Positions 10,827 through 37,881 of a stretch of DNA of 64,000 nt are shown here, piece by piece. Below the pieces are notes generated by a model. That model searched no databases. It was given only the letters and a program-made list of their open reading frames with translations, and was not told the origin of the DNA. The position numbers and the translations under genes were made by a program. Each line of letters begins with the position of its first letter. The first letter of the stretch is position 1. Source of the DNA: Spirochaetia bacterium (lineage in GTDB: Bacteria > Spirochaetota > Spirochaetia > DSM-2461); assembly GCA_963666985.2 (NCBI GenBank), contig CAXXIA010000002.1:3057189-3121188 (forward strand). Direction: 5' to 3'.

Positions 10827-11061
10827 TCCAAACTCCTTTTCCATAATGGAATATTTATTCAAATCATCGTTGTTCCCCGGAGCGTGATTTCACAAGAGAC
10901 GAAATCTCATATGCATGTGATTTATTCTCCGATCTTAAGCACTCATGCGACAATTTCTCGTATTGTAAGGACAAAAACTCCGATTCGAAGAATGGCAAGC
11001 CGGATATGGCCCTTCAAACCGCGATTTTTTTCAGCCGGTATCGGGGGAAAAGCCGGATGAA

Positions 11062-17745: not shown

Positions 17746-17749
17746 ATCA

Positions 17750-19006: not shown

Positions 19007-19090
19007 TTTCCACCTCCGCCGCCCATAATAATAATTTCTTAAACGGGCACGTGCCTTGACGGAATCGTCGATTAATAGCACGATTTTGTC

Positions 19091-20101
19091 ATGACCCCCG
19101 AAGCCCGTCGAACCTCCGCCGTTCCCATCCCGCCCACGGGCGTTCCCGCCGATACCGGCGCTTTCTCAGCCTCCCTCCGGGCCGAGAATCTTCCTCCCCA
19201 CGCCGCGTCCTGCATAAGCGGCCCCTCCGTCGGCTGCCGGACTCCTGAGTTCAACATCGAACCCGAAGACGTTCTTCTTCCGCCCGGAGATCCGCTGAAA
19301 ATCATTCGCCGCGAACCGCAAATTCCCTATCCGCTTCATACCCACAGCTTCGCCGAATTGGTCCTCATCACATCCGGAACGGGAGGACACCGCGTTGAGG
19401 ACGGCCTGGTTCCCGTCGGCGCCGGGGATGTTTTCGTTATTCGGGGAGAAAAAGCGCACGGTTATGAAAAACTGAAAGATCTTTATCTCATCAATGTTCT
19501 TTTTCAGCCCTCCCTCTTGGAATATCCCATGCAGGACTTAACGAGACTGGCCGGATTCCACGCTTTGTTCTCTTTGGAGCCGCAATGGCGCGACGGAGGA
19601 GAAACGGTCCATTTGCACCTGGATGCCGGACGTCTGGATGCCGCGCTAACCCTTGTGGAGCGCATTGAAAGTGAACTCCGTGTCCGAGAGGAAGGCTATC
19701 GCTTCATGGCCGCGGCTCATTTCCTTCGCCTGGTGGGGGAGCTTTCCCGGTGGTATTCGGGCGCCTCCCATCCCGGAGCACGCCGGCTTTTCCGGATCGG
19801 CAAGGCCTTGAGCCTCATGGAGCACCGTTTGGAGGGCCCCATTACATCCGAAGAATTGGTCTCATTAACTGGTCTTTCCATCTCAACGCTGAACAGAGCC
19901 TTTCACCGGGCCGTGGGACTCTCTCCTTTGGCCTATCACATGCGGCTGCGGCTCCGCCGGGCCGGAGAAGTGCTGCGGAGTACGGATTTGAGCATCACGG
20001 AAACGGCGGGGCGCTGCGGTTTCGACGATGCGAACTACTTTGCCCGGTGCTTTAAGAAAACGATGGGCTGCTCTCCCCGGGAATACAGGGAACGAAACTG
20101 A
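19091..20101 (+). CDS. AraC-family regulator with cupin sensor domain (RhaR/RhaS-like), divergent from rhaA
   Basis: LHTHSFAELVLITSGTGGH cupin, C-terminal CGFDDANYFARCFKK. The first ~60 aa are low-complexity, so the start is uncertain. Confidence 0.85.
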   Translation: MTPEARRTSAVPIPPTGVPADTGAFSASLRAENLPPHAASCISGPSVGCRTPEFNIEPEDVLLPPGDPLKIIRREPQIPYPLHTHSFAELVLITSGTGGHRVEDGLVPVGAGDVFVIRGEKAHGYEKLKDLYLINVLFQPSLLEYPMQDLTRLAGFHALFSLEPQWRDGGETVHLHLDAGRLDAALTLVERIESELRVREEGYRFMAAAHFLRLVGELSRWYSGASHPGARRLFRIGKALSLMEHRLEGPITSEELVSLTGLSISTLNRAFHRAVGLSPLAYHMRLRLRRAGEVLRSTDLSITETAGRCGFDDANYFARCFKKTMGCSPREYRERN

Positions 20102-23936: not shown

Positions 23937-24695
23937 TTGCAGCTCCTCAATGAAAGAGAACGGAAAATCATAGACATTCTCATCGAAAATCCCCGCATGG
24001 GGATGAACGACATGAGTAAGCTTCTTGACGTTTCGACGGTAACCCTCCGAAGCGATTTCGATGATCTTGCCGATAAGGGCTACCTCATCCGAACTCGGGG
24101 CGGCGCCCTTCCGGCCTTTCATCCGGCCATTCTCGCCCGGCAAAAGACCTTTACCGAAGCGAAAACGGCCATCGCCAAAGCGGCCGCGGATCTCATATCC
24201 GACGGCGACACCGTCATGATTGAAGCCGGAACCACAACATCCCTCATCGGCCGTTTTCTGCTGGGCAAACGGGGAGTCAAGGTGGTTACCGATTCCACGC
24301 TCCTTTTGCCTTATGCCCGTTCCAATCCCGCACTGCATCTGACCATCGTCGGAGGCATCTTCCATCCCGAGGCCGAATCCATGGTTGGTCCCATCGCGGT
24401 TGATCACCTCAAGCAGTTCCATGTGAAGACGGCGTTCATCGGAACCGACGGGCTTTCGGTGGAAAACGGACTTACAACGCATATGATGGAAGCTACGGAA
24501 GTCGTTCGGACCATGCATAACAGGTCCGACAGAACGGTTCTCTTGGCCGATTCGGGGAAATGGGGACAGGCCGGTTTTGCACGCATCATACCCTTGGATG
24601 AAGTTGATATTCTGGTAACCGACTCCGGACTTTCGGAATCGGCCCGAGATGAAATTAGAACGATGGGGATAGAACTCCTCGTCGCCGAACCGTAA
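23937..24695 (+). CDS. DeoR/GlpR-family transcriptional regulator
   Basis: VSTVTLRSDF...RTRGGA HTH; EAGTTT, LADSGKW sugar-phosphate sensor; TTG start after AAGGAG. Confidence 0.93.
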   Translation: MQLLNERERKIIDILIENPRMGMNDMSKLLDVSTVTLRSDFDDLADKGYLIRTRGGALPAFHPAILARQKTFTEAKTAIAKAAADLISDGDTVMIEAGTTTSLIGRFLLGKRGVKVVTDSTLLLPYARSNPALHLTIVGGIFHPEAESMVGPIAVDHLKQFHVKTAFIGTDGLSVENGLTTHMMEATEVVRTMHNRSDRTVLLADSGKWGQAGFARIIPLDEVDILVTDSGLSESARDEIRTMGIELLVAEP

Positions 24696-24705
24696 AGGAA
24701 GGACT

Positions 24706-26145
24706 ATGGCACAAGAAATCGTCATGCCCAAACTGGGCAACACCGTCGAATCGGTGGTCATCTTGGAATGGCGCAAGAATATCGGAGAGAGCATCGCCGT
24801 CGGGGAGGTTCTCTGCGAAGTGGAGACCGACAAAGCGACACTCGACGTGGAGGCCGAAATTGCTGGCACCCTTCTGGCCAGATATTATGAAGCGGACGAT
24901 GAAGTGGCCGTTCTTGTGCCCTTCGCCGTTATCGGCGAGGCCGGAGAGGATGTTTCTTCTTTTGCAGCCGCCGAAGCTTCATCTTCTGAAGCCTCATCCG
25001 TTTCGGATCAGGGCGCTCCCACCGATACCGGCGCTTCCTCGGCCGCCCCGGCCGCACAGACCGCCTCCTCCGCGGACGGGAAAGGCGGCGCCTTATCCGA
25101 TCAGGCCGCAGGCAACTCGGCCGCGCCGGGAATCTCTCCCCGCGCCCGAAACCTGGCCGCCTCGTCGGGCCTCGGCGGCCTTCCCGCCGCCGGCAGCGGC
25201 CCCGGCGGCCGAATCATCGAACCGGATGTACGGGCCGCCCTTGAGGGACGCATGCCCCTGACTCCCGCGGCCCTGGCCGCCGGCGGTCCGGCTCCCGCGG
25301 TCGGAACCGGAATCGGCGGCCGTGTGACGGCAGCCGATGCGGCCGGTTATGCGGGCCTTCCCGCCGGGGCGGCCGAGGCTTCCGCGGCAAGCCGAGCGCC
25401 TTCCATGCCCGCCGCGTCCGTTTTTTCACGTACGGAAGAGTTCCCCGGCCCCGTGGAGAGCATCCCTGTGAAGGGAGTGCGCAAAGTTATCGCCAAGAGT
25501 ATGTATGCCTCCCTGCATGAAACGGCTCAGCTGACTCTGAATTCCTCGGCGAATGCCGCCGCTTTGCTTTCCTGGCGCGCCGGCTTTAAGAACAGTCCGG
25601 AAGATATGGGACTCTCGAAGATTTCCATCAACGATTTGGTGATGTATGCCGTCGCCAAACTTCTGCCGCTGCATCCGGGCCTTAATGCCCATTTCCTGGG
25701 GTCTGAAATCAAACGGTTTCGGCATGTCCATTTGGGATGCGCCGTGGATACGCCCAAGGGACTCATGGTTCCGGTTATCCGTTATGCCGATACACTCTCG
25801 CTCTCGCAGCTCTCGGCGGAAACACGCCGACTCGCCGCGGCCTGCCGGGATGGAAAGGCCCTCCCCGATGAGCTTTCGGGCGGCACGTTCACCGTTACCA
25901 ATCTGGGTGCTTTCGGCATCGAGAGCTTCACTCCGGTTCTCAACGCGCCGGAAGCGGCCATCCTCGGTGTGGGGACTATCACGAACGCGGCCGTCGAAAA
26001 GCCCGACGGAAGCCTCGGAATCGAAAAGAGGCTGGGACTCTCGCTCACCATAGACCATCAGGCGGTTGACGGAGCGCCCGGTGCCCGATTCCTGAAGGAT
26101 CTCTCCGATATGATCGCGCATTTGGAATGGGCAATGGCCCTGTAG
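24706..26145 (+). CDS. Dihydrolipoamide acyltransferase (E2) with one lipoyl domain
   Basis: VETDKAT lipoyl-Lys, Ala/Ser/Gly linker, ISPRAR...GSGPGGRI subunit-binding domain, GTFTVTNLG, DHQAVDG catalytic motif. Confidence 0.94.
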   Translation: MAQEIVMPKLGNTVESVVILEWRKNIGESIAVGEVLCEVETDKATLDVEAEIAGTLLARYYEADDEVAVLVPFAVIGEAGEDVSSFAAAEASSSEASSVSDQGAPTDTGASSAAPAAQTASSADGKGGALSDQAAGNSAAPGISPRARNLAASSGLGGLPAAGSGPGGRIIEPDVRAALEGRMPLTPAALAAGGPAPAVGTGIGGRVTAADAAGYAGLPAGAAEASAASRAPSMPAASVFSRTEEFPGPVESIPVKGVRKVIAKSMYASLHETAQLTLNSSANAAALLSWRAGFKNSPEDMGLSKISINDLVMYAVAKLLPLHPGLNAHFLGSEIKRFRHVHLGCAVDTPKGLMVPVIRYADTLSLSQLSAETRRLAAACRDGKALPDELSGGTFTVTNLGAFGIESFTPVLNAPEAAILGVGTITNAAVEKPDGSLGIEKRLGLSLTIDHQAVDGAPGARFLKDLSDMIAHLEWAMAL

Positions 26146-26148
26146 AAG

Positions 26149-26309
26149 GAGGCTTCTTCAAAATGTGTCTTTGGTCCGTATACTGTGTTCGGCGATGCTC
26201 GAAATGCTCATGTAGTTTTACTACACTGCGCTTTCTGTGCTTCGGCGGCAGCGAGCTGCGAGTCTCGCTCGCTATCTACGAACAAAATCCATCATTTTGA
26301 AGAAGCCTC
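26149..26309. repeat. 161-bp MITE/REP-like palindromic element
   Basis: Perfect 17-bp terminal inverted repeats GAGGCTTCTTCAAAATG / CATTTTGAAGAAGCCTC; internal GCTCA-TGTAG-TTTTA-CTACA-CTGCGCTTT hairpin core. Confidence 0.75.
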
Positions 26310-26332
26310 TAGGAAATATAAGGAAGAAGTGC

Positions 26333-27673
26333 ATGAGTAATTACGATCTGATCATCGTTGGCGGCGGACCCGGAGGGTACAACGCCGCCGAACGCGCCGC
26401 GGCCGGAGGACTGAAAACCCTGGTGGTGGAAAAAGAACACCTGGGCGGTGTTTGTCTGAACCGCGGGTGCATTCCCACGAAAACGCTTTTGGCCGCGGCC
26501 AAGCATTACCATATTGCAACAGGCAGCGCCGAGTTCGGCGTGAAAGCCGCCGATGTCACCATGGACTGGCCGACGGCCATGAAGAGAAAGGTCAAGACGG
26601 TCCGGGCTCTGCGCTCGGGCGTGGGAACCAAACTCAAGAAACATCACGTCGATGTTATCGAGGGAGAGGCGCGTTTTACCGGTCCTAAGGAAATCGAGGT
26701 GAACGGCGAACGTCACGGCGCCTCCAAGATGCTCATCGCCACGGGCTCGCGTCCCTTCATCCCGCCCATCCCCGGAGCCGATTCCCCGTCGGTGATGACC
26801 AGCCGGGAAATCCTGGATATCGATCACATCCCGGAATCCCTCGTGGTGATCGGCGGCGGCGTGATCGGTCTGGAATTCGCCTCGTTGTTCTCCACGCTGG
26901 GAACGAAGGTGACCATCGTGGAAATGCTCCCTGAGATCGTACCGTCGCTGGATGCCGAGGTGGCGGCTCTGCTTCGCGGGCGCCTGGAAAAGCAGGTAAC
27001 CTTTAAACTCGGCGCCAAGGTTGAGAAAATCGACGGAAACACGGTGCACTATACGGACTCAAACGGTGCGGGAAACGCCGCCGGCGAAGTTATTTTGATG
27101 TCCGTGGGACGTCGCCCCGTCACCGACGGCTTGGGCCTGAAAGAAATCGGACTGGATATTCAGCGCGGCGCGATTGTTGTTGATGAGCACATGAGGACGA
27201 ATCTGCCCGGAGTGTGGGCCGCCGGAGACTGCACCGGAAAGAGCCTCTTGGCTCATTCGGCCTACCGCATGGGCGAGGTTGCCGTCAACGATATGCTTTC
27301 CAAAGCGGATCGGATGCGCTACAGCGCCGTTCCTTCGGTGGTGTACAGCATCCCCGAAGCGGCGGGAGTGGGCTTAACCGAAGCGGACGCGGCGAAGGCC
27401 GGCCGAGAGGTGATCACCAAGCAGCTCCCCATGCAGTACAGCGGCCGCTATCTGGCCGAATACGGTCAGCAGCCCGGTTTCGGAAAAATCGTGATCGACG
27501 CGAAAACCCGCGTTCTTCTCGGCGTGCATCTGGTCGGCGCTCAGTGCTCGGAGATGATTTGGGGAGCCGCCGCTCTGATTGAGGCCGAATTCCGCGTGGA
27601 TGAAGTGAAGGAACTCATTTTCCCGCATCCGACGGTCTCTGAAATCATACGGGAAACGGCCTGGGAGTTTTAG
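26333..27673 (+). CDS. lpdA: Dihydrolipoamide dehydrogenase (E3)
   Basis: GGGPGGY, GGVCLNRGCIP redox disulfide, GGGVIGLE, HPTVSE; start MSNYD. Confidence 0.95.
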   Translation: MSNYDLIIVGGGPGGYNAAERAAAGGLKTLVVEKEHLGGVCLNRGCIPTKTLLAAAKHYHIATGSAEFGVKAADVTMDWPTAMKRKVKTVRALRSGVGTKLKKHHVDVIEGEARFTGPKEIEVNGERHGASKMLIATGSRPFIPPIPGADSPSVMTSREILDIDHIPESLVVIGGGVIGLEFASLFSTLGTKVTIVEMLPEIVPSLDAEVAALLRGRLEKQVTFKLGAKVEKIDGNTVHYTDSNGAGNAAGEVILMSVGRRPVTDGLGLKEIGLDIQRGAIVVDEHMRTNLPGVWAAGDCTGKSLLAHSAYRMGEVAVNDMLSKADRMRYSAVPSVVYSIPEAAGVGLTEADAAKAGREVITKQLPMQYSGRYLAEYGQQPGFGKIVIDAKTRVLLGVHLVGAQCSEMIWGAAALIEAEFRVDEVKELIFPHPTVSEIIRETAWEF

Positions 27674-27804
27674 CGGACCGATTGTCCGTCCTCGGGTGAA
27701 AGGGACGCTTGGACCGTTAAGCGACAGGCGTCATGGAAGAGAAATCAGAACACCGGCGGCGTTCGCCGGTGAGTCGGAATATTAGGAACCAAGGAGATCA
27801 TCCA

Positions 27805-30261
27805 ATGCCCAAATGCCAAATCGTCGACCCCAAAGAGGTTCGTAAAAGCGGTAAAATTAAGTTTAACGACATTCCGGTCAATCAGTATAAAAGCGACTAC
27901 GCCAAGGAAGTGAAGACCTGGGGCGTGGAACGGCTGAAAGCGGCCTACTACCACATGCTGCTTATCCGGGAATTCGAAACGGTGATGGATTCCATCAAGA
28001 AAACCGGTGCCTACAAGGGCGTGGAATACAATCACGCGGGACCGGCGCATTTGTCCGTCGGTCAGGAAGCCGCCGCGGTCGGTCAGTCCATGGCCCTCAC
28101 TCACGAGGACTTTATTTTCGGTTCCCACCGTTCCCACGGCGAGATTCTGGCCAAGACGCTTTCGGCCGTCGTTACGATGGACGAGGCGGATCTTTTGAAC
28201 ATCATGAAGGAGTACTGGGGCGGCGAAATTCTCTCGGTTGTGGAGAAAAGCGGATCCTCGGATGTTCGGGATTTAACCGTGGACTTCATCCTCTACGGCA
28301 CCATGGCCGAAATTTTCGCGCGGAAAGCCGGCTTCAACCGGGGCTTGGGCGGTTCCATGCATACCTTCTTCCCGCCCTTCGGCTCCATGCCGAACAACGC
28401 CATCGTGGGCGGAAGCGGCGATATTTCCGTCGGAGCGGCGCTTTACAAGAGAATCAACCGGAAGCCGGGCATCGTTATCGGCAACATCGGTGATGCCGCC
28501 ATGGGCTGCGGACCGGTGTGGGAAGGCCTGATGATGGCTTCGATGGATCAGTACAAAACCCTCTGGGACAAGGAGGTGGGCGGTGCGCCTCCGGTGCTGC
28601 TGAATTTCTTCAACAATTTCTACGGCATGGGCGGTCAGCCGGTGGGCGAAACCATGGGATTCGGCATGCTGGCCCGATTGGGCGCCGGAATCAATCCCGA
28701 CAATATGCATTCCGAACGGGTGGACGGCTATAATCCGCTGGCGGTGGCCGACGCCACGGCCCGAAAGAAGAAGATTCTCCTCGCCGGCGACGGTCCTGCC
28801 ATGCTGGATGTGGTGACTTACCGGCTTTCGGGCCACAGTCCTTCGGACGCATCGAGCTACCGCACCAAGGAAGAAACCGAACTCTGGCAGGCTCAGGACT
28901 GTCTTGAAGGTTACGAGGCCTATCTGAAAAAGAACGGAGCCCTGGACGATTCGGCCATAGGCGCGTATCGGGAAACGGTGGATAAAAAGCTGATGGATAC
29001 GTTCCTGAAAGCCATCGATTTGAAGATTTCACCGCGGCCCGAAGGACGCTTTATCGAGTCGGTTATGTTCTCCAACCAAAAAGTGGAGGCCTTCGACGAC
29101 AGAGAGCCTGAAATGCTCCAGAAGCCGGAAGACAATGAGCGGGTGAAGAGTCTGAAGAAGAAGATCCGGAGTGCCAAGGACGAGAACGGCAAGCCGGTGA
29201 GTTCCGCCAAGCTGTTCGCGTTCCGGGATGCGCTTTTCGAGGCCATGATTCACCGTTATTCCATCGATCCGACTCTGGCGGCCTGGGGCGAGGAAAACCG
29301 GGACTGGGGCGGAGCTTTCGCGGTTTACAGAGGGCTCACCGAAGCGATTCCCTACCACCGGCTGTTCAATTCTCCGATTTCCGAAGGCGCCATCGTCGGC
29401 GCGGGCGTGGGGTATGCCCTCTCGGGCGGCCGGGCGGTTGTGGAACTGATGTACTGCGACTTCCTGGGCCGGGCCGGGGACGAGGTGTTCAACCAGATGT
29501 CCAAGTGGCAGAGCATGAGCGCCGGTGTTCTGAAAATGCCTCTGACTCTGCGGGTTTCGGTGGGCGCCAAGTACGGGGCGCAGCATGCTCAGGACTGGAC
29601 CTCCCTGGTGGCTCATATCCCCGGACTGAAAGTCTATTTCCCGGCGACTCCCACGGACGCCAAGGGTATGCTGAACCTGGCCCTTTCCGGCACCGATCCG
29701 GTGGTGTTCCTGGAGAGCCAGAGACTCTACGGCATCGGAGAAGAGTTCGAACCGGGCGGTGTCCCCGAGGGCTATTACGAAACCCCCGAAGGTGTTCCCG
29801 CGGTGCGGAAGCAGGGAAAGGATCTGACGATCATCACTTTGGGCGCGACGCTTTACACGGCGCTGAAGGCCGCGGACACGTTGGCCGAAACATACGGGGT
29901 GGACGCCGAGGTTATCGATATGCGCTTCGTGAATCCGCTGAATTACGATGTTCTGGCCGAATCGGTGAAAAAGACCGGCCGGGTGATTTTGGCTTCCGAC
30001 GCGGTGGAGCGGGGCAACTATCTGCAGACCGTGGCCAACAATTTGAGCCAGATCTGCTTCGACTCTCTGGATGCCCCGCCGGTGGTGCTGGGGTCACGCA
30101 ACTGGATTTCTCCGGCGGCGGAAATGGAGAGCGACTTCTTTCCGCAGAGCGAATGGCTTATAGACCTGGTGCATGAGCGGATTCTTCCTCTTAAGGGTCA
30201 TGTTCCCACAACGGTACAGACCATCGGCGAACTGATTCGCCGGGAGAGGAGCGGCGTGTGA
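27805..30261 (+). CDS. ThDP-dependent dehydrogenase E1 with fused alpha and beta subunits (acetoin/2-oxoacid dehydrogenase-like)
   Basis: Alpha: [23 protein letters not shown]...NN ThDP motif, YRLSGHS. Beta: GEE, SPISEG, ELMYCDF, AQH, IDMR. Start MPKCQ after AAGGAG. Confidence 0.92.
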
Positions 30262-31595
30262 GCAGCAAGGCCGAACTGGAGGCTTTGAGACTCGACGGGA
30301 GCGACGCGGCCTCCCGGCTGGCGCGGCTGGAGGAAAAGCTGGCGGCGGATCGCACGGCGGGGTTCGCTCCGCCGAAGACCGGCGAGGTGAACAACCATAT
30401 CCACACGAGTTACTCTTTCAGTCCTTATTCGCCCGCCGAGGCGGCCTACGGCGCCTGGCGGGCCGGGCTGGAAGCGGCCGGGATTGTGGACCATGAATCG
30501 GTTTCCGGCTGCGCCGAAATGAGTGAAGCCGGAAAACGGATCGGTCTGGGCGTAACCTCGGGCTGCGAGCTTCGGGTGGATGCCGCCGGGACGCCGCTTG
30601 AGGGCCGCCGGATTAACAATCCGGACTCGCTGGGGCTGCTGTACATGGTGATTCACGGCATCCCGAAAAGCGGCCTGGCCGAAGTGGACGCGTACCTGGC
30701 GAAAATCCGGAAATCCCGGAACGCGAGAATGCGGGACCAGACCGCGGCGCTGAACGGTATTCTGGCCGAAGCGGGACTGCCGATCCTGGATTTCGATGAC
30801 GATGTGGCGGCGATTTCCAGGAGTGCCGAGGGCGGCAGCATCACCGAACGGCACATCCTTTTCGCTCTGGCGAAAAAGGCGGCGGATGCCTACGGACGCG
30901 GAGAAACGCTGGTCGGAATGCTGGATTCGGCTTTCGGGCTCTCGGTGCCGCCGGTTATCGCTCAGCGTCTTTCCGATCCGGAGAATCCCCATTTTCTCTA
31001 CGATCTTCTGGGTCTGTTTAAAGGATCTCTGGTGCCGCGATTCTTCCGGCAGCCGGATTCCGTTGAGTGTCCGCCGGCGGCCGAAGCGACCGCCCTGGCC
31101 GCTCGGGTGGGCGCCATTCCCGCTTATCCTTATCTGGGCGATGTGGGCGAGTCTCCCACGGGCGATAAGAAGGCCGAGAAGTATGAGGACGATTGGCTGG
31201 AAGAACTGTTTGAGGTTCTGCCCGAGATGGGCTATAAGGCCGTAACCTACATGCCTCCGCGGAATACGAAAGAGCAGCTTTCGCGGGTGAAGGATTTCTG
31301 CGGCAAAAAGGGCCTGATGCAGATCTCCGGCGTGGATATCAATTCTTCGCGGCAGGATTTTCGGTGCCCCGAAGTAACCGATCCCGATTTCGTGCATTTG
31401 AACGACAGCACGTGGGCCCTGATTGCCCATGAACATCTTTCGAATCACGGCGGTCCGGGGCTCTTCGACGAGGCTTCGCCCATGAAGGACGCGCCTTTGG
31501 AAATTCGGCTGGATATTTACGCGAGAATCGGCCGGCGAATGGATCCTTCGCATCCGGAAACCATTCTCGCCGCGGCCAAACGGGAGGGCTTATGA
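30258..31595 (+). CDS. PHP-domain metalloenzyme (phosphoesterase-like, function unknown)
   Basis: [29 protein letters not shown] start overlaps the E1 stop and its stop overlaps the SDR start. Confidence 0.8.
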
Positions 31596-32794
31596 ATCGA
31601 TTGATTTTAACTCCGATACTCCGCGGGGCCTATATGGAAGCCCTCAAGGGGCCTGTTTTCCTTCTTTTCAGCGAGACTGAAAATACCGATCTGCCCGAGC
31701 TCGTTCTCGGAGGAGACGGCGGACGCCGAATGAAAGAGGACTTTTCCTCCGGCGAAGTCTATACCGCCGAAAACCGGGAGTGGGAACGGAAAATAGGAAA
31801 ACAGGCCCGGGACGCTCTGGCCGCGATGAAGGACGCCGACGGTTTACTGCCCGCCGGCGTTCGTGTCTCGGGTTTGGGGAGCTTTTATGCCGGAAGAACT
31901 TGGGAAGAGGCCGAGGCTCATCGCCGCGGCGCGGCCGGCCGTTTGCCTGAGGCGGCATGTTCCGGACGGGCCGATGTTGTTCGGGGGCGTATCGCGTTGG
32001 TAACGGGAGGCGCTCAAGGCTTCGGCGCGGAAATAGCCCGGGGGCTGGCGGATGAAGGAGCCTTTGTGTTCGTGGCGGACATCAACGCCGAGGGCGCCGA
32101 AGCTTTCGCCGCGGAACTGAACGGAACGGGAGCCAAACGGGCCGCCGCCGTGGCCGCGGATGTGTCGGATGAGGATTCCATTCGGGCCATGGCCGACTCC
32201 GTGGTCGCCGAGGCCGGGGGGCTGGATCTTCTGGTGAGCAACGCCGGCGTGCTTCGCGCCGGGTCGGTTCTGGAACAGCCCGCTCGGGATTTCGATTTCG
32301 TTACACAAATCAATTACAGCGCCTTTTTTATGGTGGTGAAGCACTGCGCTCCGGTGATGATTCGGCAGAGATCGGCGTGTCCGTCGCGAAGAAGCGACAT
32401 TCTGCAAATCAATTCCAAGAGCGGCTTGGCGGGGTCGAATAAAAACGGCGCTTATGCCGGCGGAAAGTTCGGAGGAATCGGCTTGGTGCAGAGCTTCGCC
32501 ATGGAACTGGTGGAGTACGGAATCAAGGTGAACGCGGTCTGCCCCGGCAACTTCTTCGACGGACCTTTGTGGTCCGATCCTCAAAAAGGGCTTTTCGTTC
32601 AGTACTTGAACACGGGGAAGGTGCCCGGTGCGAAGAGCGTGGCCGATGTGAAGAGATTTTACGAGGCGAAAGTGCCCATGGGACGAGGATGCGAAGGCGC
32701 GGACGTGCTGCGGGCCATCCTTTACTGCGTTGAGCAGGAATATGAAACGGGTCAGGCCGTGCCGGTTACAGGCGGTCAGATTATGCTGAAATAG
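31592..32794 (+). CDS. SDR oxidoreductase, sorbitol-6-phosphate dehydrogenase (SrlD/SorD)-like, with ~130-aa N-terminal extension
   Basis: TGGAQGFG, SNAG, QINSKSG, YAGGKFGG, QSFAMEL, VPMGRGC, TGQAVPVTGGQ. Confidence 0.87.
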   Translation: MNRLILTPILRGAYMEALKGPVFLLFSETENTDLPELVLGGDGGRRMKEDFSSGEVYTAENREWERKIGKQARDALAAMKDADGLLPAGVRVSGLGSFYAGRTWEEAEAHRRGAAGRLPEAACSGRADVVRGRIALVTGGAQGFGAEIARGLADEGAFVFVADINAEGAEAFAAELNGTGAKRAAAVAADVSDEDSIRAMADSVVAEAGGLDLLVSNAGVLRAGSVLEQPARDFDFVTQINYSAFFMVVKHCAPVMIRQRSACPSRRSDILQINSKSGLAGSNKNGAYAGGKFGGIGLVQSFAMELVEYGIKVNAVCPGNFFDGPLWSDPQKGLFVQYLNTGKVPGAKSVADVKRFYEAKVPMGRGCEGADVLRAILYCVEQEYETGQAVPVTGGQIMLK

Positions 32795-32810
32795 CTCGCC
32801 GAAGCGGTCC

Positions 32811-32910
32811 TTTGGCCTTAATGCGGCGCCGGGGAATTGATTGAATTGCTCACGTGCCGGAGCACGCTGCGCTTTTTTCGCCGGATTCCCCGGCCTGCCT
32901 TTAGGCCAAA
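32811..32910. repeat. Second palindromic intergenic element related to 26149-26309
   Basis: Nested arms TTTGGCCT/AGGCCAAA and GCCGGGGAAT/ATTCCCCGGC around core GCTCA-CGTGC-CGGA-GCACG-CTGCGCTTT. Confidence 0.65.
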
Positions 32911-32970
32911 TCGCTTGCTTGGGCAAACTGCTTGTTGCTGGTGAATGAAGGAAATATAAGGAGTAGTGAA

Positions 32971-34239
32971 ATGAAAACCAATGCGGTTCGAATGTACGGA
33001 AAGGAAGATCTTCGGCTCGAAGAGTTCGAACTTCCCGAGATGAAGGACGATGAGATACTGGCGCACATCATTTCCGACAGTATCTGTATGAGTACCTATA
33101 AAGCCGCCGAACAGGGAACGGCTCATAAGCGTGTTCCGGCGAATATCGCCGAAGAGCCCGTTATGATCGGTCATGAATTCTGCGGCCGGATTCTCAAAGT
33201 GGGATCCAAGTGGGCCGGGAAATACAAGGAAGGCGACAAGTTCACCATTCAGCCGGCGCTGAACTACAAAGGGAGTCTGGATGCTCCCGGATACAGCTTC
33301 CGGTGGATCGGCGGAGCGGCCACCGACATCCTCATTCCCAATGAGGTGATGGAGATGGACTGCCTTCTGCCTTACGACCAGGAAGCATATTACTTCGGCA
33401 GCCTTTCGGAACCCATGAGCTGCATCGTGGGCGCTTTCCGCGCCAGCTATCATGTTCCGCAGGGAACTTACAATCATCAGATGGGTCTCAAACCCGGCGG
33501 TACGATGGCCATTCTGGCCGGCGCCGGTCCCATGGGACTGGGCGCGGTTGATTTGGCTCTTCACGGCGATATCAAGCCGCGAAAACTGGTGGTGACCGAT
33601 ATCGACGATGCGCGGCTTGCGCGCGCCGAGTCCCTCTTTCCCGCATCCGAGGCGGAAAAAGTCGGCGTGGAATTGGTTTATATGAACACCGCCAAAGTCG
33701 ACGATCCGGTGGCCGCTTTAAAGGCGCAGGCCGGTTCGGACGGATTCGACGATGTCTTCGTTATGGCGCCCGTCGCTCCGGTTATCGAACAGGCGGACCG
33801 CATTCTGGGTAAGGACGGCTGCATGAATTTTTTCGCCGGTCCCACAAATCCCGAATTCACGGCGAAGGTCAACTTTTACGACGTTCACTATGCTTTCCAT
33901 CACATCGTCGGAACCAGCGGCGGAAACACCGAAGATATGATGATTTCCTTGGAAATGATGAGAATCGGACGTATTGACCCCTCCATCATGATTACTCATG
34001 TCGGCGGATTGAATTCGGTGATTGAGACCACGCTGAATCTGCCGAAGATTCCCGGCGGCAAAAAGCTCATTTACACGAACGTGAAGCTGCCGCTCGTCGC
34101 CATTGAGGATTTTGCCGAAAAGGGAAAAAGCGATCCGTTCTGGGCGGCCCTCGCGGAGATTACCGGGAAGAACAACGGGATTTGGAACGCGGAAGCGGAG
34201 GCTTATCTTCTGGCGAACGCTCCGGCCATCTGCGGCTGA
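32971..34239 (+). CDS. L-sorbose-1-phosphate reductase (SorE)-like MDR dehydrogenase
   Basis: DSICMSTYK, IGHEFCG, IQPALN, APGYS, EPMSC, GAGPMG, NFFAGP, GTSGG, THVGGL, PGGKKLIY; no structural-Zn Cys cluster, as in SorE-like proteins. Confidence 0.85.
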   Translation: MKTNAVRMYGKEDLRLEEFELPEMKDDEILAHIISDSICMSTYKAAEQGTAHKRVPANIAEEPVMIGHEFCGRILKVGSKWAGKYKEGDKFTIQPALNYKGSLDAPGYSFRWIGGAATDILIPNEVMEMDCLLPYDQEAYYFGSLSEPMSCIVGAFRASYHVPQGTYNHQMGLKPGGTMAILAGAGPMGLGAVDLALHGDIKPRKLVVTDIDDARLARAESLFPASEAEKVGVELVYMNTAKVDDPVAALKAQAGSDGFDDVFVMAPVAPVIEQADRILGKDGCMNFFAGPTNPEFTAKVNFYDVHYAFHHIVGTSGGNTEDMMISLEMMRIGRIDPSIMITHVGGLNSVIETTLNLPKIPGGKKLIYTNVKLPLVAIEDFAEKGKSDPFWAALAEITGKNNGIWNAEAEAYLLANAPAICG

Positions 34240-34380
34240 AAAATCGGAGAATATCCCAAGGCGGCCGGAAAAATTTATACCTCCGGTTTCGGCTATATCA
34301 TGAGATAATTGTTTACGGCGGATTCTTTAAAGGACCGCCGTGAATGTTTTAATAACTGATTTTTTCGGAGGAATTCTTAT

Positions 34381-36183
34381 ATGAAGTTCAAAGCGGCGAA
34401 AACAGGAGAATGGCGTTATACCGGCGGAAGGCCTAAAATCGGCATCAGACCGACGATCGACGGACGTCTCGGCGGCGTTCGGGAGAGTCTGGAAGATCAG
34501 ACGATGAGCATGGCCAAAGCCGCCGCCGATCTTATCTCCGGGAAATTAAAGTATATCGACGGAACACCGGTGGAATGCGTTATCGCGGAGAGCTGCATCG
34601 GCGGTGTCGCCGAGGCTTCTGCCTGTCAGGCCAAGTTTGAAGCCTCCGGAGTCGGCGCCACTCTCACGGTAACGCCCTGCTGGTGTTACGGTTCGGAAAC
34701 CATGGATATGGATCCCAAGACTCCCAAGGCCGTTTGGGGATTCAACGGGACCGAGCGGCCCGGTGCCGTTTATTTGGCCGCCGTTCTTGCCGCCCATGCT
34801 CAGAAGGGGCTTCCCGCGTTCGGAATCTACGGGCGGAACGTGCAGGATTCAAGCGACACAAGCCTTCCCGCCGACGTGGAAGAGAAAATTTTAAGGTTCG
34901 CCAGGGCCGCCGTGGCTTTCGCCACCATGCGAGGCAAAAGCTATCTTTCCATCGGTTCTGTGTCCATGGGCATCGCCGGCTGCATTGTCGATGAAAGTTT
35001 CTTCCAGAATTATCTCGGCATGCGCAACGAGTACGTGGACATGAGTGAAATCGGCAGGCGCATCAGGGAAGAAATTTACGATACCGCGGAATACGAGCGG
35101 GCCCGTGCCTGGGTGAAGGAAAACTTGAAGATCGGGGCCGATCCCAATCCCGCCGACCAGCGGCATTCACCGGAACGGAAAGAGGCCGAATGGGACGAAT
35201 CGGTAAAGATGGCCCTTATCGCGAAGGATCTGATGAGCGGAAATCCGGCGCTGGCCGAAAAAGGTTTCGGCGAAGAGGCCCACGGACACAACGCCATCGC
35301 CGCGGGTTTTCAGGGACAGCGGCAATGGACCGATTGGAGAGCCAACGGCGATTTCATGGAGACCATGGCCAACACCAGTTTCGACTGGGACGGATTCCGG
35401 CAGCCTTACATCCTGGCCACGGAGAACGACACCCTGAACGGCATTACCATGCTGTTCGGGCATCTCTTAACGAATACGGCTCAGATTTTCAGCGATGTAC
35501 GCACCTTCTGGAGCCCCGAAGCCGTGGAACGCGTTACGGGACATAAGCTCGGCGGCCGGGGTGAGGGAGGACTGATCCACCTGATCAATTCCGGCTCCAC
35601 CTGTCTTGACGGTACCGGCGAGCAGACCGTAAACGGAACGCCGGGCATCAAGCCTTTCTGGGAGATTACCGAAGCGGAAGCCGAAGCCTGTGTGAAGGCC
35701 ACGAATTTTTGTCCCGGAAATTTAGGCTATTTCCGCGGCGGCGGCTATTCCTCCGATTTCCTTACCAAAGGGAATATGCCCTGCACCATGAGCCGTCTGA
35801 ACTTGATTAAAGGGCAGGGACCGATCCTGCAGATCGCCGAGGGCTGGACCGTGGAAATCCCGGGTGAGGTTCATGATAAGCTCGACAAGCGAACCGATCC
35901 CACCTGGCCGACCACTTGGTTTTCGCCTCGCCTTACGGGCACGGGGAATTTCAAGGATGTCTATTCGGTCATGGCCGCCTGGGGCGCCAATCACGGAGCC
36001 GTCAGTTACGGACATATCGGCGCCGATTTGATTTCCCTGGCGGCGATGCTCCGTATTCCGGTTTCCATGCACAATGTCGCAGATGAAGCGATTTTCCGTC
36101 CGGCCGCCTGGAATCACTTCGGTCAGGATAAGGAAGGAGCCGATTTCAGGGCCTGCGCGAACTTCGGCCCGATGTATAAATAG
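34381..36183 (+). CDS. fucI: L-fucose isomerase (also D-arabinose isomerase)
   Basis: [63 protein letters not shown]. Confidence 0.96.
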
Positions 36184-36381
36184 ATTTTTCTTCTCCGGGG
36201 CGGCCTGCTGACGATAAGTGCCGCCTTGGGGATCACGGGGGCGTACCGCGTAACCGCGTAAATATCAGTGTGCTGACGTCGGAAACGGACAGCTTTGAGA
36301 ACGTACCGGACATCTGCGCGGAAGACTGCACGGCAGTGAGGTACGCCCCGATCAATATTCCACAATTCCGGGAGAACCGTA

Positions 36382-37881
36382 ATGAGCTACACAGTCGCCG
36401 TCTTGGACATCGGAAAGACCAACAAGAAAGTCGCTTTATATGATGAAGAGATGAACCCCATCGCCGTACGTAAGAGAAAGATTGAAACGTACGTACAGGA
36501 TGGTCTGGATATCGAAGACATCGAAACGGTGGTCGACTGGTTCCTTCAGCAGCTCGGGGAACTCGGGAAGGAATATGAGATTCGAAGCATTGCCGTTACA
36601 ACACACGGCGCCACGTTCGTTTGTCTTGACGGTGAAGGACATCCGTCGGTTCCGCCTGTGGCCTACACCAACGAAGTGGATGAGAGCGTTCATGAACGGT
36701 TTTGGGCCGCCATGGGAAACCCCAAGGAAATTCAGCGAAACACCGCAACCGCTGAAGTCAAGCCTTTAATCAATCCGGCCAAGCTCCTTTGGTTTTTGAA
36801 GGAAAGCCGGCCTGAGGATTTTAAGCGGACCAAGCATATCCTTCTCTATCCGCAGTACTTTGCCTACAGGCTGACCGGCAGGATCGCGGCCGACATTACC
36901 TATACGGGCTGTCACAGCTACCTCTGGGACTTCGGAAAGAACGATTGGTCGGAAGTGACCGATAAGCTTGGGATTCGCGGCATGCTGCCGAAGAAGCCGG
37001 GACTGCCGACCGAAGAGCTCGGTCCCCTTTCGCCGGAAGTTGCCGCACGGACCGGTTTGTCTCCGGATGTAAAAGTTACGCTGGGGATTCACGATTCCAA
37101 TTCGTCGCTCATTCCCTATTTGATTACTCAAAAGAAAGATTTCGTGCTGAATTCCACCGGAACCTGGTGCGTAGCCATGCATCCGGTGGACCAAGTGCGT
37201 TTCGAAGCCGATGAGCTGGGAAAGATGATCTTCTACAACTTATCGTTTGAGGGACGGCCGGTGAAAACGTCCATCCTCATGGGCGGGTTGGAATACGCCT
37301 TTTATACCGAAGCCGTCATGAAGCATCACGGCAGGCAGGAATGGCCGGATTATGATCCGGCGATGTATGCCGATATCCTTTCCCTGCCGCGGACCTTCCT
37401 GCTTCCGTCCCTGGTTCCGGGAAGCGGTCAGTTCCCCGACTCGGTCGCCAGAGTCGTTGACGAGGGAGAAGAGTATTCGCCGAACGATATCGAAACCGGG
37501 AACCGCTGGCCCAAGGCTTTCGAGGATTATCGCGCCGGATTCGCTCTGGCCAATCTTTCTCTGGCCATTCAAACCCGTATCGCGCTGCTTCGCGTCGGAC
37601 TTACCCCCGGAACGGAAGTGTTCATCGAGGGCGGATTCCGGCAGAACGAAAATTACGGCGCCCTTCTCGGTGCGCTGCTCCCGGAAAATCCTCTCTATTT
37701 AACGTCTCTTGATGAAGCGACAAGTTTCGGCGCGGCTCTGACGGCCAAAGCCCTGGCGGACGGTGTGTCCGTTGCGTCCTTAAAAAAGTATGTCAAACTC
37801 GACAAGCAGCCGGTAACCCCGGCCCGATTGGATGGGCTGGAGGATTATGTCGCGGCGTTTATGGCGTATATCGAGGGCTGA
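36382..37881 (+). CDS. FGGY-family carbohydrate kinase (fuculo-/rhamnulokinase-like)
   Basis: LDIGKTNKK, TTHGA, GCHSYLWDF, GIHDSN, NSTGTW, IEGGF; directly after fucI. Confidence 0.85.
   Translation: MSYTVAVLDIGKTNKKVALYDEEMNPIAVRKRKIETYVQDGLDIEDIETVVDWFLQQLGELGKEYEIRSIAVTTHGATFVCLDGEGHPSVPPVAYTNEVDESVHERFWAAMGNPKEIQRNTATAEVKPLINPAKLLWFLKESRPEDFKRTKHILLYPQYFAYRLTGRIAADITYTGCHSYLWDFGKNDWSEVTDKLGIRGMLPKKPGLPTEELGPLSPEVAARTGLSPDVKVTLGIHDSNSSLIPYLITQKKDFVLNSTGTWCVAMHPVDQVRFEADELGKMIFYNLSFEGRPVKTSILMGGLEYAFYTEAVMKHHGRQEWPDYDPAMYADILSLPRTFLLPSLVPGSGQFPDSVARVVDEGEEYSPNDIETGNRWPKAFEDYRAGFALANLSLAIQTRIALLRVGLTPGTEVFIEGGFRQNENYGALLGALLPENPLYLTSLDEATSFGAALTAKALADGVSVASLKKYVKLDKQPVTPARLDGLEDYVAAFMAYIEG

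What the first reader, a model, noticed from the sequence alone, without database searches (positions are those of the whole stretch)
23937..37881. Candidate new sugar-catabolic system: a lipoate-dependent E1/E2/E3 complex built into a fucose-isomerase / ketose-phosphate gene cluster
Seen: one co-directional run deoR-E2-E3-E1(fused)-PHP-SDR-SorE-like-fucI-FGGY kinase, with overlapping stop/start codons at E1/PHP and PHP/SDR. Established: DeoR proteins sense sugar phosphates; acetoin dehydrogenase (AcoABCL) cleaves CH3-CO-CHOH-R acyloins to acetyl-CoA plus an aldehyde; SorE plus SorD convert L-sorbose-1-P via glucitol-6-P to fructose-6-P. Inference: this complex is not a housekeeping PDH but a ketose-phosphate-cleaving dehydrogenase. 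SorE/SorD chemistry on a 6-deoxy-ketose-1-P would give a 1-deoxy-ketose-6-P, which is a methyl acyloin. An Aco-type complex would cleave it to acetyl-CoA, a tetrose-4-P (erythrose-4-P if the sorbose configuration is reached) and NADH, avoiding lactaldehyde/propanediol. An alternative is D-arabinose to xylulose-5-P, then glycolyl-CoA plus G3P. I know of no characterised pathway of this kind, but could not check the literature.
Basis: partly seen in the sequence, partly recalled or inferred. Interest (0 to 1): 0.9.

Follow-up and report, generated by a model that had tools for sequence, protein, structure and literature searches.

The report
Deoxy-sugar operon with own lipoyl complex
A repressor-controlled operon joins fucose and rhamnose genes to a second, unusual pyruvate-dehydrogenase-like complex, a widely conserved gene set that may break these sugars down without the usual aldolase, though nobody has measured what it does.

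Summary
Window 23937-37881 encodes, on one strand, DeoR, E2, E3, a fused E1 alpha-beta, a PHP-fold protein, an SrlD-like SDR, a SorE-like MDR, FucI and an FGGY kinase.

- **Not the housekeeping PDH.** The genome has a separate AceE-AceF-Lpd set.
- **A family of its own.** The E1 reaches no curated PDH cutoff. Its orthologues are 59-86% identical across several phyla.
- **Conserved neighbourhood.** In 30 loci with at least 9 kb on both sides, E2 occurs in 30, E3 in 28, DeoR in 27, SDR in 24 and PHP in 21.
- **Genome-level co-occurrence.** Among 251 genomes of the phylum, 12 carry the E1. Of these, 10 also carry the PHP protein, against 1 of the other 239, and all 12 carry FucI or RhaA.
- **Missing aldolase.** Of 16 genomes with fucI beside the module, 10 have no class II aldolase-family gene other than AraD.

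My best reading (0.45) is that the complex cleaves a deoxy-ketose phosphate, re-functionalised by the MDR and SDR, into an acyl-CoA plus a phosphorylated aldehyde. The main rival (0.3) is oxidation of the lactaldehyde branch, which has been predicted in print for Caldicellulosiruptor. No assay was found in my nine literature searches. Earlier notes of this scan describe the same gene set on other DNA.

The parts
23937..24695 (+). DeoR-family repressor that heads the operon
   Evidence: PF08220 plus PF00455. It reaches no NCBIfam equivalog cutoff; the best model is AgaR at 163.6 bits against 260. A DeoR gene was found in 27 of 30 loci with at least 9 kb of flank on both sides.
24706..26145 (+). 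E2 dihydrolipoyl acyltransferase
   Evidence: Lipoyl, E3-binding and 2-oxoacid_dh catalytic domains. Motifs ETDKA and DHQAVDG are present. All PDH and OGDH E2 equivalog cutoffs are missed. Found in 30 of 30 loci.
26237..27673 (+). E3 dihydrolipoyl dehydrogenase
   Evidence: TIGR01350 scores 480.9 bits against a cutoff of 408.8. Found in 28 of 30 loci.
27805..30261 (+). Fused E1 alpha-beta, ThDP-dependent. The ORF opens at 27733; homologues point to a start at 27805 (818 aa).
   Evidence: PF00676, PF02779 and PF02780. The best PDH E1 models score 162-220 bits against cutoffs of 321-454. Homologues of 818 aa are 68-86% identical. At least 583 stretches in species-representative genomes encode a relative.
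30258..31595 (+). PHP-fold metalloenzyme with no assigned step
   Evidence: The model has a mean pLDDT of 92.6. The best PDB matches are 3o0f/3e0f, 2yb1 (Cv1693) and 9etk (RNase AM), with target TM-scores of 0.66-0.74. H47, H49, D78, H79, E104, H199, D360 and H391 are invariant in 32 sequences. It co-occurs with the E1 in 10 of 12 carrier genomes and in 1 of 239 others.
31592..32794 (+). SrlD-like / RhaW-like short-chain dehydrogenase with an N-terminal extension of about 130 aa
   Evidence: NF009050 (sorbitol-6-P dehydrogenase) scores 224.5 bits against 307. Residues 104-400 are 57% identical to the SDR half of a 654-aa Aldolase_II-SDR fusion in L085.
32932..34239 (+). SorE-like medium-chain (zinc-type) dehydrogenase. 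The form in the protein database is 415 aa.
   Evidence: PF08240 plus PF00107. Homologues at about 70% identity are named 'L-sorbose 1-phosphate reductase' by JGI. PDB sequence hits are ketose reductase and sorbitol dehydrogenase.
34381..36183 (+). L-fucose isomerase FucI
   Evidence: NF008220 scores 1067 bits (cutoff 775) and TIGR01089 scores 1035 bits (cutoff 850).
36382..37881 (+). FGGY-family sugar kinase (FGGY_C_2 type), presumed 6-deoxy-ketose kinase
   Evidence: PF00370 plus PF21546. All equivalog cutoffs are missed: XylB 71.9, rhamnulokinase 61.9, fuculokinase 48.8 bits. It lies inside the module in 8 of 30 loci.
17750..19081 (-). L-rhamnose isomerase RhaA, about 5 kb upstream of deoR
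   Evidence: PF06134 scores 591.7 bits.
16489..17781 (-). RhaE-like class II aldolase-fold protein (430 aa), the other half of the split RhaEW-like pair
   Evidence: PF00596 scores 65.5 bits. The best NCBIfam models are bifunctional aldolase/SDR families, all below cutoff. It aligns to residues 1-377 of the L085 fusion at 32% identity.
19091..20101 (+). AraC-family regulator divergent from rhaA
   Evidence: AraC_binding plus HTH_18.

Best explanation
This is a self-contained, DeoR-repressed catabolic module for the 6-deoxyhexoses L-fucose and L-rhamnose.

Shown from sequence:
- An isomerase (FucI here, RhaA about 5 kb upstream) and an FGGY kinase are present.
- A complete ThDP/lipoyl E1-E2-E3 complex, additional to the cell's AceE-type PDH, is co-inherited with a PHP-fold metalloenzyme, an SrlD-like SDR and a SorE-like MDR.

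Inferred:
1. The isomerase and kinase make a 6-deoxy-ketose-1-phosphate.
2. The MDR reduces its C2 ketone, as SorE does with sorbose-1-P.
3. The SDR oxidises the hydroxyl next to the methyl end, as SrlD does with sorbitol-6-P. This gives a 1-deoxy-ketose-6-phosphate, which is a methyl acyloin.
4. The acetoin-dehydrogenase-like complex cleaves it oxidatively into acetyl-CoA, NADH and a tetrose-4-phosphate. A cut one bond further in would instead give lactyl-CoA plus glyceraldehyde-3-P.

This would replace the FucA aldolase and the lactaldehyde/propanediol branch, and it would save the cleavage energy as a thioester. The PHP protein's step is open. It could hydrolyse a phosphoester or correct the stereochemistry of an intermediate.
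For: **A second, distinct complex.** AceE (TIGR00759, 1333.7 bits against a cutoff of 859.9), an E2 and an Lpd lie elsewhere in the genome. The window E1 is below all curated cutoffs. Its alpha part matches PDH and BCKDH alpha chains only weakly, at 65 bits or less. Other fused E1s in the phylum are only 35-38% identical to it.

**Conserved synteny.** Of 30 loci with at least 9 kb on both sides, E2 is in 30, E3 in 28, DeoR in 27, SDR in 24 and PHP in 21. MDR is in at least 14 (the identity threshold misses a long form), FGGY in 8 and fucI in 8.

**Genome-level co-occurrence in 251 genomes of the phylum.** E1 orthologues (at least 59% identity) occur in 12. The PHP protein occurs in 10 of those 12 and in 1 of the 239 others. 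Clear FucI matches occur in 9 of 12 and RhaA in 9 of 12; one or the other occurs in all 12.

**Fucose loci without an aldolase.** Of 16 genomes with fucI within 10 kb of the module, 6 have no PF00596 match and 4 have only AraD-type epimerases. None reaches a FucA or RhaD equivalog cutoff. G190, not one of these 16, is 99% complete. It has LplA, then MDR-FGGY-SDR-PHP-E1-E3-E2-DeoR on one strand, facing FucU-ABC transporter-LacI-FucI on the other, and no PF00596 match.

**Homology sets the likely regiochemistry.** The SDR's best model is sorbitol-6-P 2-dehydrogenase. MDR homologues are named sorbose-1-P reductase. A paper's table gives 51% and 54% identity to E. coli SrlD and Klebsiella SorE for genes of a matching C. 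bescii gene set, and lists acetoin-dehydrogenase components as the best characterised hits of its E1, E2 and E3.

**A known gap.** A 2017 survey recorded FucA as unexplained missing in 23 gut genomes (passages).
Against: - No biochemical evidence was found in any of my literature searches.
- C. saccharolyticus ferments rhamnose to 1,2-propanediol, acetate, H2 and CO2 at 1:1:1:1 (passages). Its rhamnose-induced cluster Csac_0865-0876 is listed with SrlD, SorE, E2, E3, E1, DeoR and RhaA. I did not compare those sequences with the window.
- The SDR is the homologue of the SDR half of RhaEW-like fusions. Validated RhaEW enzymes give DHAP plus lactate (passages).
- RhaE-like aldolase-fold genes sit beside rhaA in the window, in G035 and in G099. 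An aldolase route may therefore exist for rhamnose.
- Some E1 carriers lack the PHP protein: 3 of 5 tested. In L085 and L071 the complex sits instead with an Aldolase_II-SDR fusion, DJ-1/PfpI and a glyoxalase-family gene. That context points to C3 carbonyl chemistry.
- By my own derivation the tetrose product would be D-threose-4-P, which is not a central metabolite.
- The PHP fold matches phosphoesterases, and the scheme has no obvious need for one.
Confidence: 0.45

Rival explanations
1. The complex works after an aldolase, on the three-carbon half of the sugar. It would oxidise L-lactaldehyde to an acyl-CoA directly (lactyl-CoA), or act after conversion to lactate and pyruvate, or act on methylglyoxal. 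The SDR and MDR would then be lactaldehyde dehydrogenase and reductase. This is the reading printed for Caldicellulosiruptor bescii.
For: [quoted passage not shown]
- The SDR is 57% identical to the SDR half of an Aldolase_II-SDR fusion, and the window's RhaE-like protein matches the other half.
- Validated RhaEW enzymes make DHAP plus lactate.
- RhaE-like genes lie next to rhaA in the window, G035 and G099.
- L085 and L071 place DJ-1/PfpI and a glyoxalase-family gene directly after E1.
- C. saccharolyticus makes 1,2-propanediol from rhamnose at 1:1.
Against: - 10 of 16 genomes with fucI beside the module have no class II aldolase-family gene other than AraD, and the 99%-complete G190 has none. 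No source of lactaldehyde is visible there.
- The MDR and SDR resemble sugar-phosphate enzymes (SorE, SrlD) rather than C3 enzymes.
- A DeoR regulator and a kinase sit inside the module.
- A separate PDH already exists in this genome.
- The PHP protein is unexplained here too.
Confidence: 0.3
2. The module acts on another sugar that FucI and the kinase also accept, or on an imported polyol. One example is D-arabinose via D-ribulose and a pentulose phosphate, with the complex giving glycolyl-CoA plus a triose phosphate.
For: - Only 8 of 30 well-flanked loci have fucI within 10 kb.
- Several loci have only a ribose-type ABC transporter next to the module.
- The kinase fits no curated kinase family; its best model is XylB at 71.9 bits.
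Against: - All 12 E1 carriers in the phylum sample have FucI or RhaA.
- FucU, rhaA and rhamnulokinase-like genes are the recurring neighbours.
- No arabinose-specific gene recurs in the loci I annotated.
Confidence: 0.1
3. It is an ordinary pyruvate, branched-chain or acetoin dehydrogenase complex that merely lies beside sugar genes.
For: - The domain architecture is that of any E1-E2-E3 complex.
- The beta half of E1 matches PDH and BCKDH beta chains at 145-184 bits.
- Some databases name homologues 2-oxoisovalerate or acetoin dehydrogenase.
Against: - Synteny with PHP, SDR, MDR and DeoR is conserved across phyla.
- Co-occurrence with the PHP protein is 10 of 12 carriers against 1 of 239 others.
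- All PDH E1 and E2 equivalog cutoffs are missed.
- A separate AceE-type PDH is present.
Confidence: 0.05

Closest known systems
Caldicellulosiruptor rhamnose locus (C. bescii Athe_0695-0706, C. saccharolyticus Csac_0865-0876)
   Same: The paper's supplementary table lists FucA, RhaD1, SrlD, SorE, lipoyl synthase, E2, E3, E1, a DeoR regulator (RhaR2) and RhaA in one locus. The cluster is induced on rhamnose, and the role of its 'other genes' is stated to be unclear.
   Different: - I did not compare the sequences, so orthology rests on gene content and on earlier notes of this scan.
- That locus has predicted aldolases, and the organism excretes 1,2-propanediol.
- The window has fucI and an FGGY kinase in the run and no short FucA-type gene in it.
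- The table rows I saw list no PHP gene.
Acetoin dehydrogenase enzyme system AcoABCL
   Same: It is a ThDP- and lipoate-dependent E1-E2-E3 system that cleaves a methyl acyloin into acetyl-CoA and an aldehyde (recalled). Acetoin-dehydrogenase components are the best characterised hits given for the C. bescii genes, at 33-42% identity.
   Different: - The E1 here is one fused 818-aa chain.
- The NCBIfam AcoC model matches only the lipoyl end, at 60 bits against a cutoff of 307.
- The neighbours are sugar genes, not butanediol or acetoin genes.
- The substrate is untested.
L-sorbose pathway pair SorE (sorbose-1-P reductase) and SorD/SrlD (glucitol-6-P 2-dehydrogenase)
   Same: An MDR and an SDR of these families lie side by side, which suggests the same reduce-then-oxidise move of the carbonyl along a hexose phosphate.
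   Different: - The SDR is below the SrlD cutoff (224.5 against 307).
- No curated SorE model matched the MDR.
- No sorbose PTS genes are present.
- The context is fucose and rhamnose.
RhaEW (B. subtilis YuxG, Chloroflexus Caur_2283), bifunctional rhamnulose-1-P aldolase / lactaldehyde dehydrogenase
   Same: The window's 430-aa RhaE-like protein and the module SDR align end to end with a 654-aa Aldolase_II-SDR fusion. Fusions of this architecture were shown to convert rhamnulose-1-P to DHAP and lactate.
   Different: - The two halves are split here and about 14 kb apart.
- TIGR02632 scores 92 and 142 bits for the two halves, against a cutoff of 568.
- The SDR scores higher on the SrlD model.
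- FucI-only carriers lack the RhaE-like half.
Canonical phosphorylated fucose pathway (FucI, FucK, FucA, FucO)
   Same: FucI is at equivalog level. A kinase, the FucU mutarotase and transporters are present in related loci.
   Different: No FucA-level aldolase is present in the cluster, and in 10 of 16 fucI-linked carrier genomes none was found beyond AraD. The kinase is not FucK-like.

Membership tests
2-oxoacid dehydrogenase complexes (PDH / BCKDH / OGDH) | E1 with a ThDP fold, E2 with lipoyl, E3-binding and catalytic domains, and an FAD E3 | tested here: met
   Pfam domains. E3 is over the TIGR01350 cutoff. The lipoyl-lysine and catalytic-histidine motifs are present.
2-oxoacid dehydrogenase complexes (PDH / BCKDH / OGDH) | E1 and E2 reach a curated equivalog score for PDH, OGDH or BCKDH | tested here: not met
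   E1 alpha scores 162 bits against 394, E1 beta 220 against 454 and E2 275 against 445.
2-oxoacid dehydrogenase complexes (PDH / BCKDH / OGDH) | Oxidative decarboxylation of a 2-oxo acid | not testable with these tools
   Needs an enzyme assay.
Acetoin dehydrogenase system AcoABCL | AcoC-type E2 matched by the curated model | tested here: not met
   NF011457 scores 60 bits against 307, over the lipoyl end only.
Acetoin dehydrogenase system AcoABCL | Cleavage of a methyl acyloin to acetyl-CoA plus an aldehyde | not testable with these tools
   Inferred only. Characterised Aco proteins are the best hits reported for the C. bescii genes.
SorE / SrlD pair of the sorbose pathway | SDR reaches the sorbitol-6-P dehydrogenase equivalog score | tested here: not met
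   NF009050 scores 224.5 bits against 307. It is still the best model.
SorE / SrlD pair of the sorbose pathway | MDR is an orthologue of L-sorbose-1-P reductase | tested here: inconclusive
   No curated model hit; the best is IolM at 75 bits. JGI names some homologues SorE. 54% identity to a Klebsiella SorE is reported for the C. bescii gene.
RhaEW bifunctional aldolase / dehydrogenase | Aldolase_II domain and SDR domain homologous to a fusion protein | tested here: met
   The two window proteins cover residues 1-377 and 365-654 of the L085 fusion.
RhaEW bifunctional aldolase / dehydrogenase | Reaches the TIGR02632 equivalog score | tested here: not met
   92 bits (RhaE-like), 142 bits (SDR) and 288 bits (the L085 fusion), against a cutoff of 568.
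Canonical FucIKA pathway | FucI at equivalog level | tested here: met
   NF008220 scores 1067 bits against 775.
Canonical FucIKA pathway | FucK and FucA at equivalog level | tested here: not met
   The kinase scores 48.8 bits against 470.9 on the fuculokinase model. No FucA or RhaD model cutoff was reached by any class II aldolase-family gene of the window's genome that I scored.
PHP-family trinuclear phosphoesterases (Cv1693 / TrpH group) | PHP fold | tested here: met
   Foldseek E-values of 3e-11 to 9e-10 and target TM-scores of 0.66-0.74 to 3o0f, 2yb1 and 9etk.
PHP-family trinuclear phosphoesterases (Cv1693 / TrpH group) | Pfam PF02811 over its gathering score | tested here: not met
   24 bits against 26.4.
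PHP-family trinuclear phosphoesterases (Cv1693 / TrpH group) | Phosphoester hydrolysis | not testable with these tools
   His, Asp and Glu residues are invariant. That they are the metal ligands is my inference from the recalled PHP motifs.

The most novel reading that the evidence does not exclude
The lipoyl complex is itself the carbon-carbon-cleaving enzyme of an aldolase-free fucose and rhamnose pathway. It would cut a deoxy-ketose phosphate prepared by SorE-like and SrlD-like dehydrogenases into acetyl-CoA (or lactyl-CoA) and a sugar phosphate. All six carbons would stay in central metabolism and an extra thioester would be gained, with no propanediol and no microcompartment. In that scheme the PHP-fold protein and the RhaE-like protein may be epimerases (C3 and C4) that steer both sugars to the sorbose configuration, so that erythrose-4-P results.
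Probability: 0.4. Interest if true: 0.88.

Novelty: new variant of a known kind. Interest (0 to 1): 0.74.

Why it matters
Fucose and rhamnose are major sugars of mucins, pectins and algal polymers. The textbook routes leave half of each sugar as lactaldehyde or propanediol.

A 2017 survey recorded that many gut bacteria have fucI and fucK but no FucA. A 2021 study left this dehydrogenase unassigned in Caldicellulosiruptor.

The gene set occurs in oral Actinomycetaceae, termite-gut and other spirochaetes, Propionibacteriaceae, Verrucomicrobiota and others. If the complex cleaves the sugar skeleton, that would be a new role for a lipoate-dependent complex. It would also change carbon and redox budgets for deoxy-sugar fermentation. 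The question can be tested directly with a few purified proteins.

Tried and rejected
- **Literature.** Nine full-text searches found no assay of this complex and no paper on 1-deoxy-ketose-6-P cleavage. The van de Werken 2008 paper is not held.
- **A tenth conserved protein.** Five neighbouring proteins of about 275 aa with no Pfam match turned out to be unrelated to each other.
- **Lactaldehyde salvage through an F6P-aldolase.** The TAL/FSA family was found in only 2 of 5 carrier genomes and in 0 of 3 spirochaetes that are 99% complete. This cannot be the general route.
- **Tetrose use.** Transketolase is present in 5 of 5 carriers, which neither supports nor excludes a tetrose product.
- **MDR in PHP-less carriers.** The search returned nothing in any of 5 genomes, including one that has the PHP protein. 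The tool warns that such a blank shows nothing.
- **Promoter and terminator scan.** Counts were at shuffle level: 8 against 7.1 and 23 against 21.3.
- **ESM Atlas for the PHP protein.** It returned only 'PHP domain' clusters.
- **ORF picking.** Greedy picking of the longest ORFs failed in GC-rich loci and was replaced by a GC3-weighted pick.
- **Not attempted.** E1 active-site comparison, an E1 tree against named Aco, PDH and BCKDH proteins, and RNA-seq read mapping.

Full report
**1. Observation**

Window 23937-37881 holds nine co-directional ORFs. Pfam and NCBIfam give the following.
- DeoR regulator.
- E2 with lipoyl, E3-binding and catalytic domains.
- E3: TIGR01350 scores 480.9 bits against a cutoff of 408.8.
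- One fused E1 alpha-beta chain.
- A 445-aa protein with a sub-threshold PHP match.
- An SDR whose best model is sorbitol-6-P dehydrogenase (224.5 bits against 307).
- A divergent zinc-type MDR.
- FucI at equivalog level (1067 bits against 775).
- An FGGY kinase that fits no curated kinase family.

E1/PHP and PHP/SDR each overlap by four bases. E2 has the lipoyl-lysine and catalytic-histidine motifs. Homologues of the E1 are 818 aa, so its start is probably 27805.

**2. Surroundings**

Upstream on the minus strand lie RhaA (17750-19081) and a 430-aa class II aldolase-fold protein (16489-17781). An AraC regulator, an IS481-type transposase and a ribose-type ABC sugar transporter (6044-10862) are also there. 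Both a fucose isomerase and a rhamnose isomerase therefore flank the complex.

The genome (4.86 Mb, 93% complete) has a separate AceE (TIGR00759, 1333.7 bits against 859.9), an E2 and an Lpd on another contig. The window complex is thus an additional one.

**3. A distinct, mobile family**

The E1 is below every curated PDH and transketolase cutoff. Its alpha half matches solved PDH and BCKDH alpha chains at 65 bits or less, and its beta half at up to 184 bits.

Close homologues (68-86% identity, 818 aa) come from spirochaetes, candidate division KSB3 and others. A scan of species-representative genomes found at least 583 stretches that encode a relative. The best 80 (61-86% identity) include Treponema, Actinomycetaceae, Propionibacteriaceae, Lentisphaerales, Verrucomicrobiota, Caldilineae and Anaeromyxobacter. 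In a sample of 251 genomes of the window's phylum, 12 carry an orthologue (at least 59% identity). Other fused E1s there are only 35-38% identical.

**4. Conserved module**

tblastn of the nine window proteins against the 80 loci shows the order DeoR-E2-E3-E1-PHP-SDR-(FGGY)-MDR again and again.

| Gene | Loci with it, of 30 with at least 9 kb on both sides |
|---|---|
| E2 | 30 |
| E3 | 28 |
| DeoR | 27 |
| SDR | 24 |
| PHP | 21 |
| MDR | at least 14 (the 45% threshold misses a long MDR form seen) |
| FGGY | 8 |
| fucI | 8 |

At genome level, the PHP protein is in 10 of the 12 E1 carriers and in 1 of the 239 other genomes of the phylum sample. The three mismatches are fragmented genomes that are 80-93% complete.

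Clear FucI matches occur in 9 of the 12 carriers and RhaA in 9 of the 12, and every carrier has one or the other. Across the whole sample, FucI-family matches occur in 52 of 251 genomes and RhaA matches in 25 of 251. Related genomes are not independent, so I give no statistic.

In Actinomycetaceae the locus reads sugar-binding protein, FucI, a rhamnulokinase-like kinase, LacI, FucU, DeoR, E2, E3, E1, PHP, SDR, MDR. In G190 (99% complete) it reads LplA, then MDR-FGGY-SDR-PHP-E1-E3-E2-DeoR on one strand, facing FucU, an ABC transporter, LacI and FucI on the other.

**5. The missing aldolase**

I examined 16 genomes in which fucI lies within 10 kb of the module.
- 6 have no match to the class II aldolase family.
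- 4 have only AraD-type L-ribulose-5-P epimerases, which score over the NF005123 cutoff.
- 6 have a RhaE-like long form, a short ambiguous member, or both.
- None reaches a FucA or RhaD equivalog cutoff.

Most of the ten are Actinomycetaceae, and their completeness was not reported. One of them is a complete chromosome record. G190 is not among the 16 because its fucI lies just over 10 kb from the E1; it also has no match.

A 2017 survey listed the absence of FucA in 23 gut genomes as an open problem (passages). In these genomes some module protein must break the carbon chain. E1 is the only member of a family known to cleave carbon-carbon bonds.

**6. The companions**

*SDR.* The SDR and the 430-aa RhaE-like protein are the two halves of a RhaEW-type protein. 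They align to residues 365-654 (57% identity) and 1-377 (32% identity) of a 654-aa Aldolase_II-SDR fusion in a Propionicimonas locus. The SDR half of that fusion scores 228.7 bits on the SrlD model, like the window SDR.

Validated RhaEW enzymes convert rhamnulose-1-P to DHAP and lactate. The authors also saw no DHAP when NAD+ was left out (passages). This leaves room for oxidation before cleavage, which is my inference.

*MDR.* Its homologues are named L-sorbose 1-phosphate reductase by JGI.

*PHP protein.* The model is confident (pLDDT 92.6). It matches the Cv1693 / RNase AM group of PHP phosphoesterases. Its His, Asp and Glu residues are invariant in 32 sequences. Its role is open.

**7. Variants**

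Three of five E1 carriers whose loci lack a PHP gene lack the PHP protein altogether. In L085 and L071 the operon reads DeoR-E2-E3-E1-DJ-1/PfpI-AraC-glyoxalase family. In L085 an Aldolase_II-SDR fusion, a glycerate kinase and a TAL/FSA gene lie upstream. This context fits reactive C3 carbonyl compounds, and it is the best argument for the rival reading.

**8. What is in print**

Nine searches found no assay.
- Rodionov et al. 2021 (PMC8579813; passages and supplementary file 2) list the following in C. bescii:
  - Athe_0695 FucA and Athe_0696 RhaD1;
  - Athe_0698 SrlD (51% to E. coli SrlD) and Athe_0699 SorE (54% to a Klebsiella SorE);
  - Athe_0701 lipoyl synthase;
  - Athe_0702-4 'predicted dehydrogenase in rhamnose utilization' (33-42% to acetoin dehydrogenase parts);
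  - Athe_0705 DeoR and Athe_0706 RhaA.
- The same paper suggests that the dehydrogenase handles lactaldehyde.
- A 2013 review (PMC4187192, passages) reports that the matching Csac_0865-0876 cluster is induced on rhamnose and that the role of its other genes is unclear. It also reports that rhamnose yields 1,2-propanediol, acetate, H2 and CO2 at 1:1:1:1.
- I did not align those proteins with the window's.
- Earlier notes of this scan describe the same gene set on other DNA (8 notes and 8, one of them in both). They gave me the lead to these two papers.

**9. Mechanism**

Shown: the gene content, its conservation, its link to FucI and RhaA, and the lack of an aldolase in many carriers.

Inferred:
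1. The kinase makes a 6-deoxy-ketose-1-P.
2. The SorE-like MDR reduces C2.
3. The SrlD-like SDR oxidises C5.
4. The resulting 1-deoxy-ketose-6-P is cleaved by the complex into acetyl-CoA, NADH and a tetrose-4-P.

By Fischer-projection bookkeeping (my inference), fuculose-1-P and rhamnulose-1-P differ only at C4, which becomes the aldehyde carbon. Both would therefore give the same product, D-threose-4-P, unless C3 is inverted first. An inversion to the sorbose configuration would give erythrose-4-P.

A cut between C3 and C4 of a 4-keto intermediate would give lactyl-CoA plus glyceraldehyde-3-P instead.

The data do not decide between these cuts, nor fully against the lactaldehyde reading.

**10. 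Verdict**

This is a real, widely inherited and biochemically untested module. One organism's fermentation balance speaks against it, if that organism's genes are true orthologues.

Noticed in passing
window 20363-21556 (+): An IS481-type transposase (rve plus HTH_32 and LZ_Tnp_IS481) lies between the rhaA/AraC block and the DeoR operon. It is followed on the minus strand by an aldo-keto reductase fused to a 4Fe-4S dicluster domain (21729-22907) and an FMN reductase (23130-23681). The insertion may have separated the rhamnose genes from the module.
   Followed up: no
window 14624-15967 (-): A HipA-like kinase ORF (HipA_C plus Couple_hipA) lies between the two-component system and the RhaE-like gene.
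   Followed up: no
window 38017-38721 (+) and 38776-42512 (-): Directly after the kinase there is an AAA_21/AAA_15 ATPase of the AbiEii-like type. Minus-strand genes follow, including a CarboxypepD_reg-domain protein and a T2SS protein F homologue. The operon ends at 37881.
   Followed up: no
G000:C2:2411705-2412241 (-), outside the window: The genome holds a second FucI-family gene (254.5 bits on Fucose_iso_N2, open frame of 666 aa) far from the module.
   Followed up: no
L115:39-1046 (+) in G190; Athe_0701 in print: A lipoate-protein ligase LplA lies next to the module in G190, and a lipoyl synthase lies next to the C. bescii set. Cofactor supply seems to travel with the complex in anaerobes.
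   Followed up: partly
L085:12538-13965 and L071:12598-14134: In Propionicimonas-type loci, DJ-1/PfpI and a glyoxalase-family gene follow E1. L071 also has a PFL-like glycyl-radical enzyme with its activase upstream.
   Followed up: partly
L016:16474-17121 (-) and L035:4183-5472 (-): The short or doubled class II aldolase-fold genes next to the module in these two loci score best on the 3-oxo-tetronate-4-phosphate decarboxylase model, at 129 and 153 bits against a cutoff of 250. This is a faint hint of four-carbon phosphate chemistry.
   Followed up: no
L066 and L084 (record titles Xylanimonas cellulosilytica 352_XCEL and Sanguibacter keddieii 250_SKED): Their loci have gene coordinates almost identical to those of the Schaalia loci, with 80-85% identity in a flanking protein. 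The organism labels of these records may be wrong.
   Followed up: no
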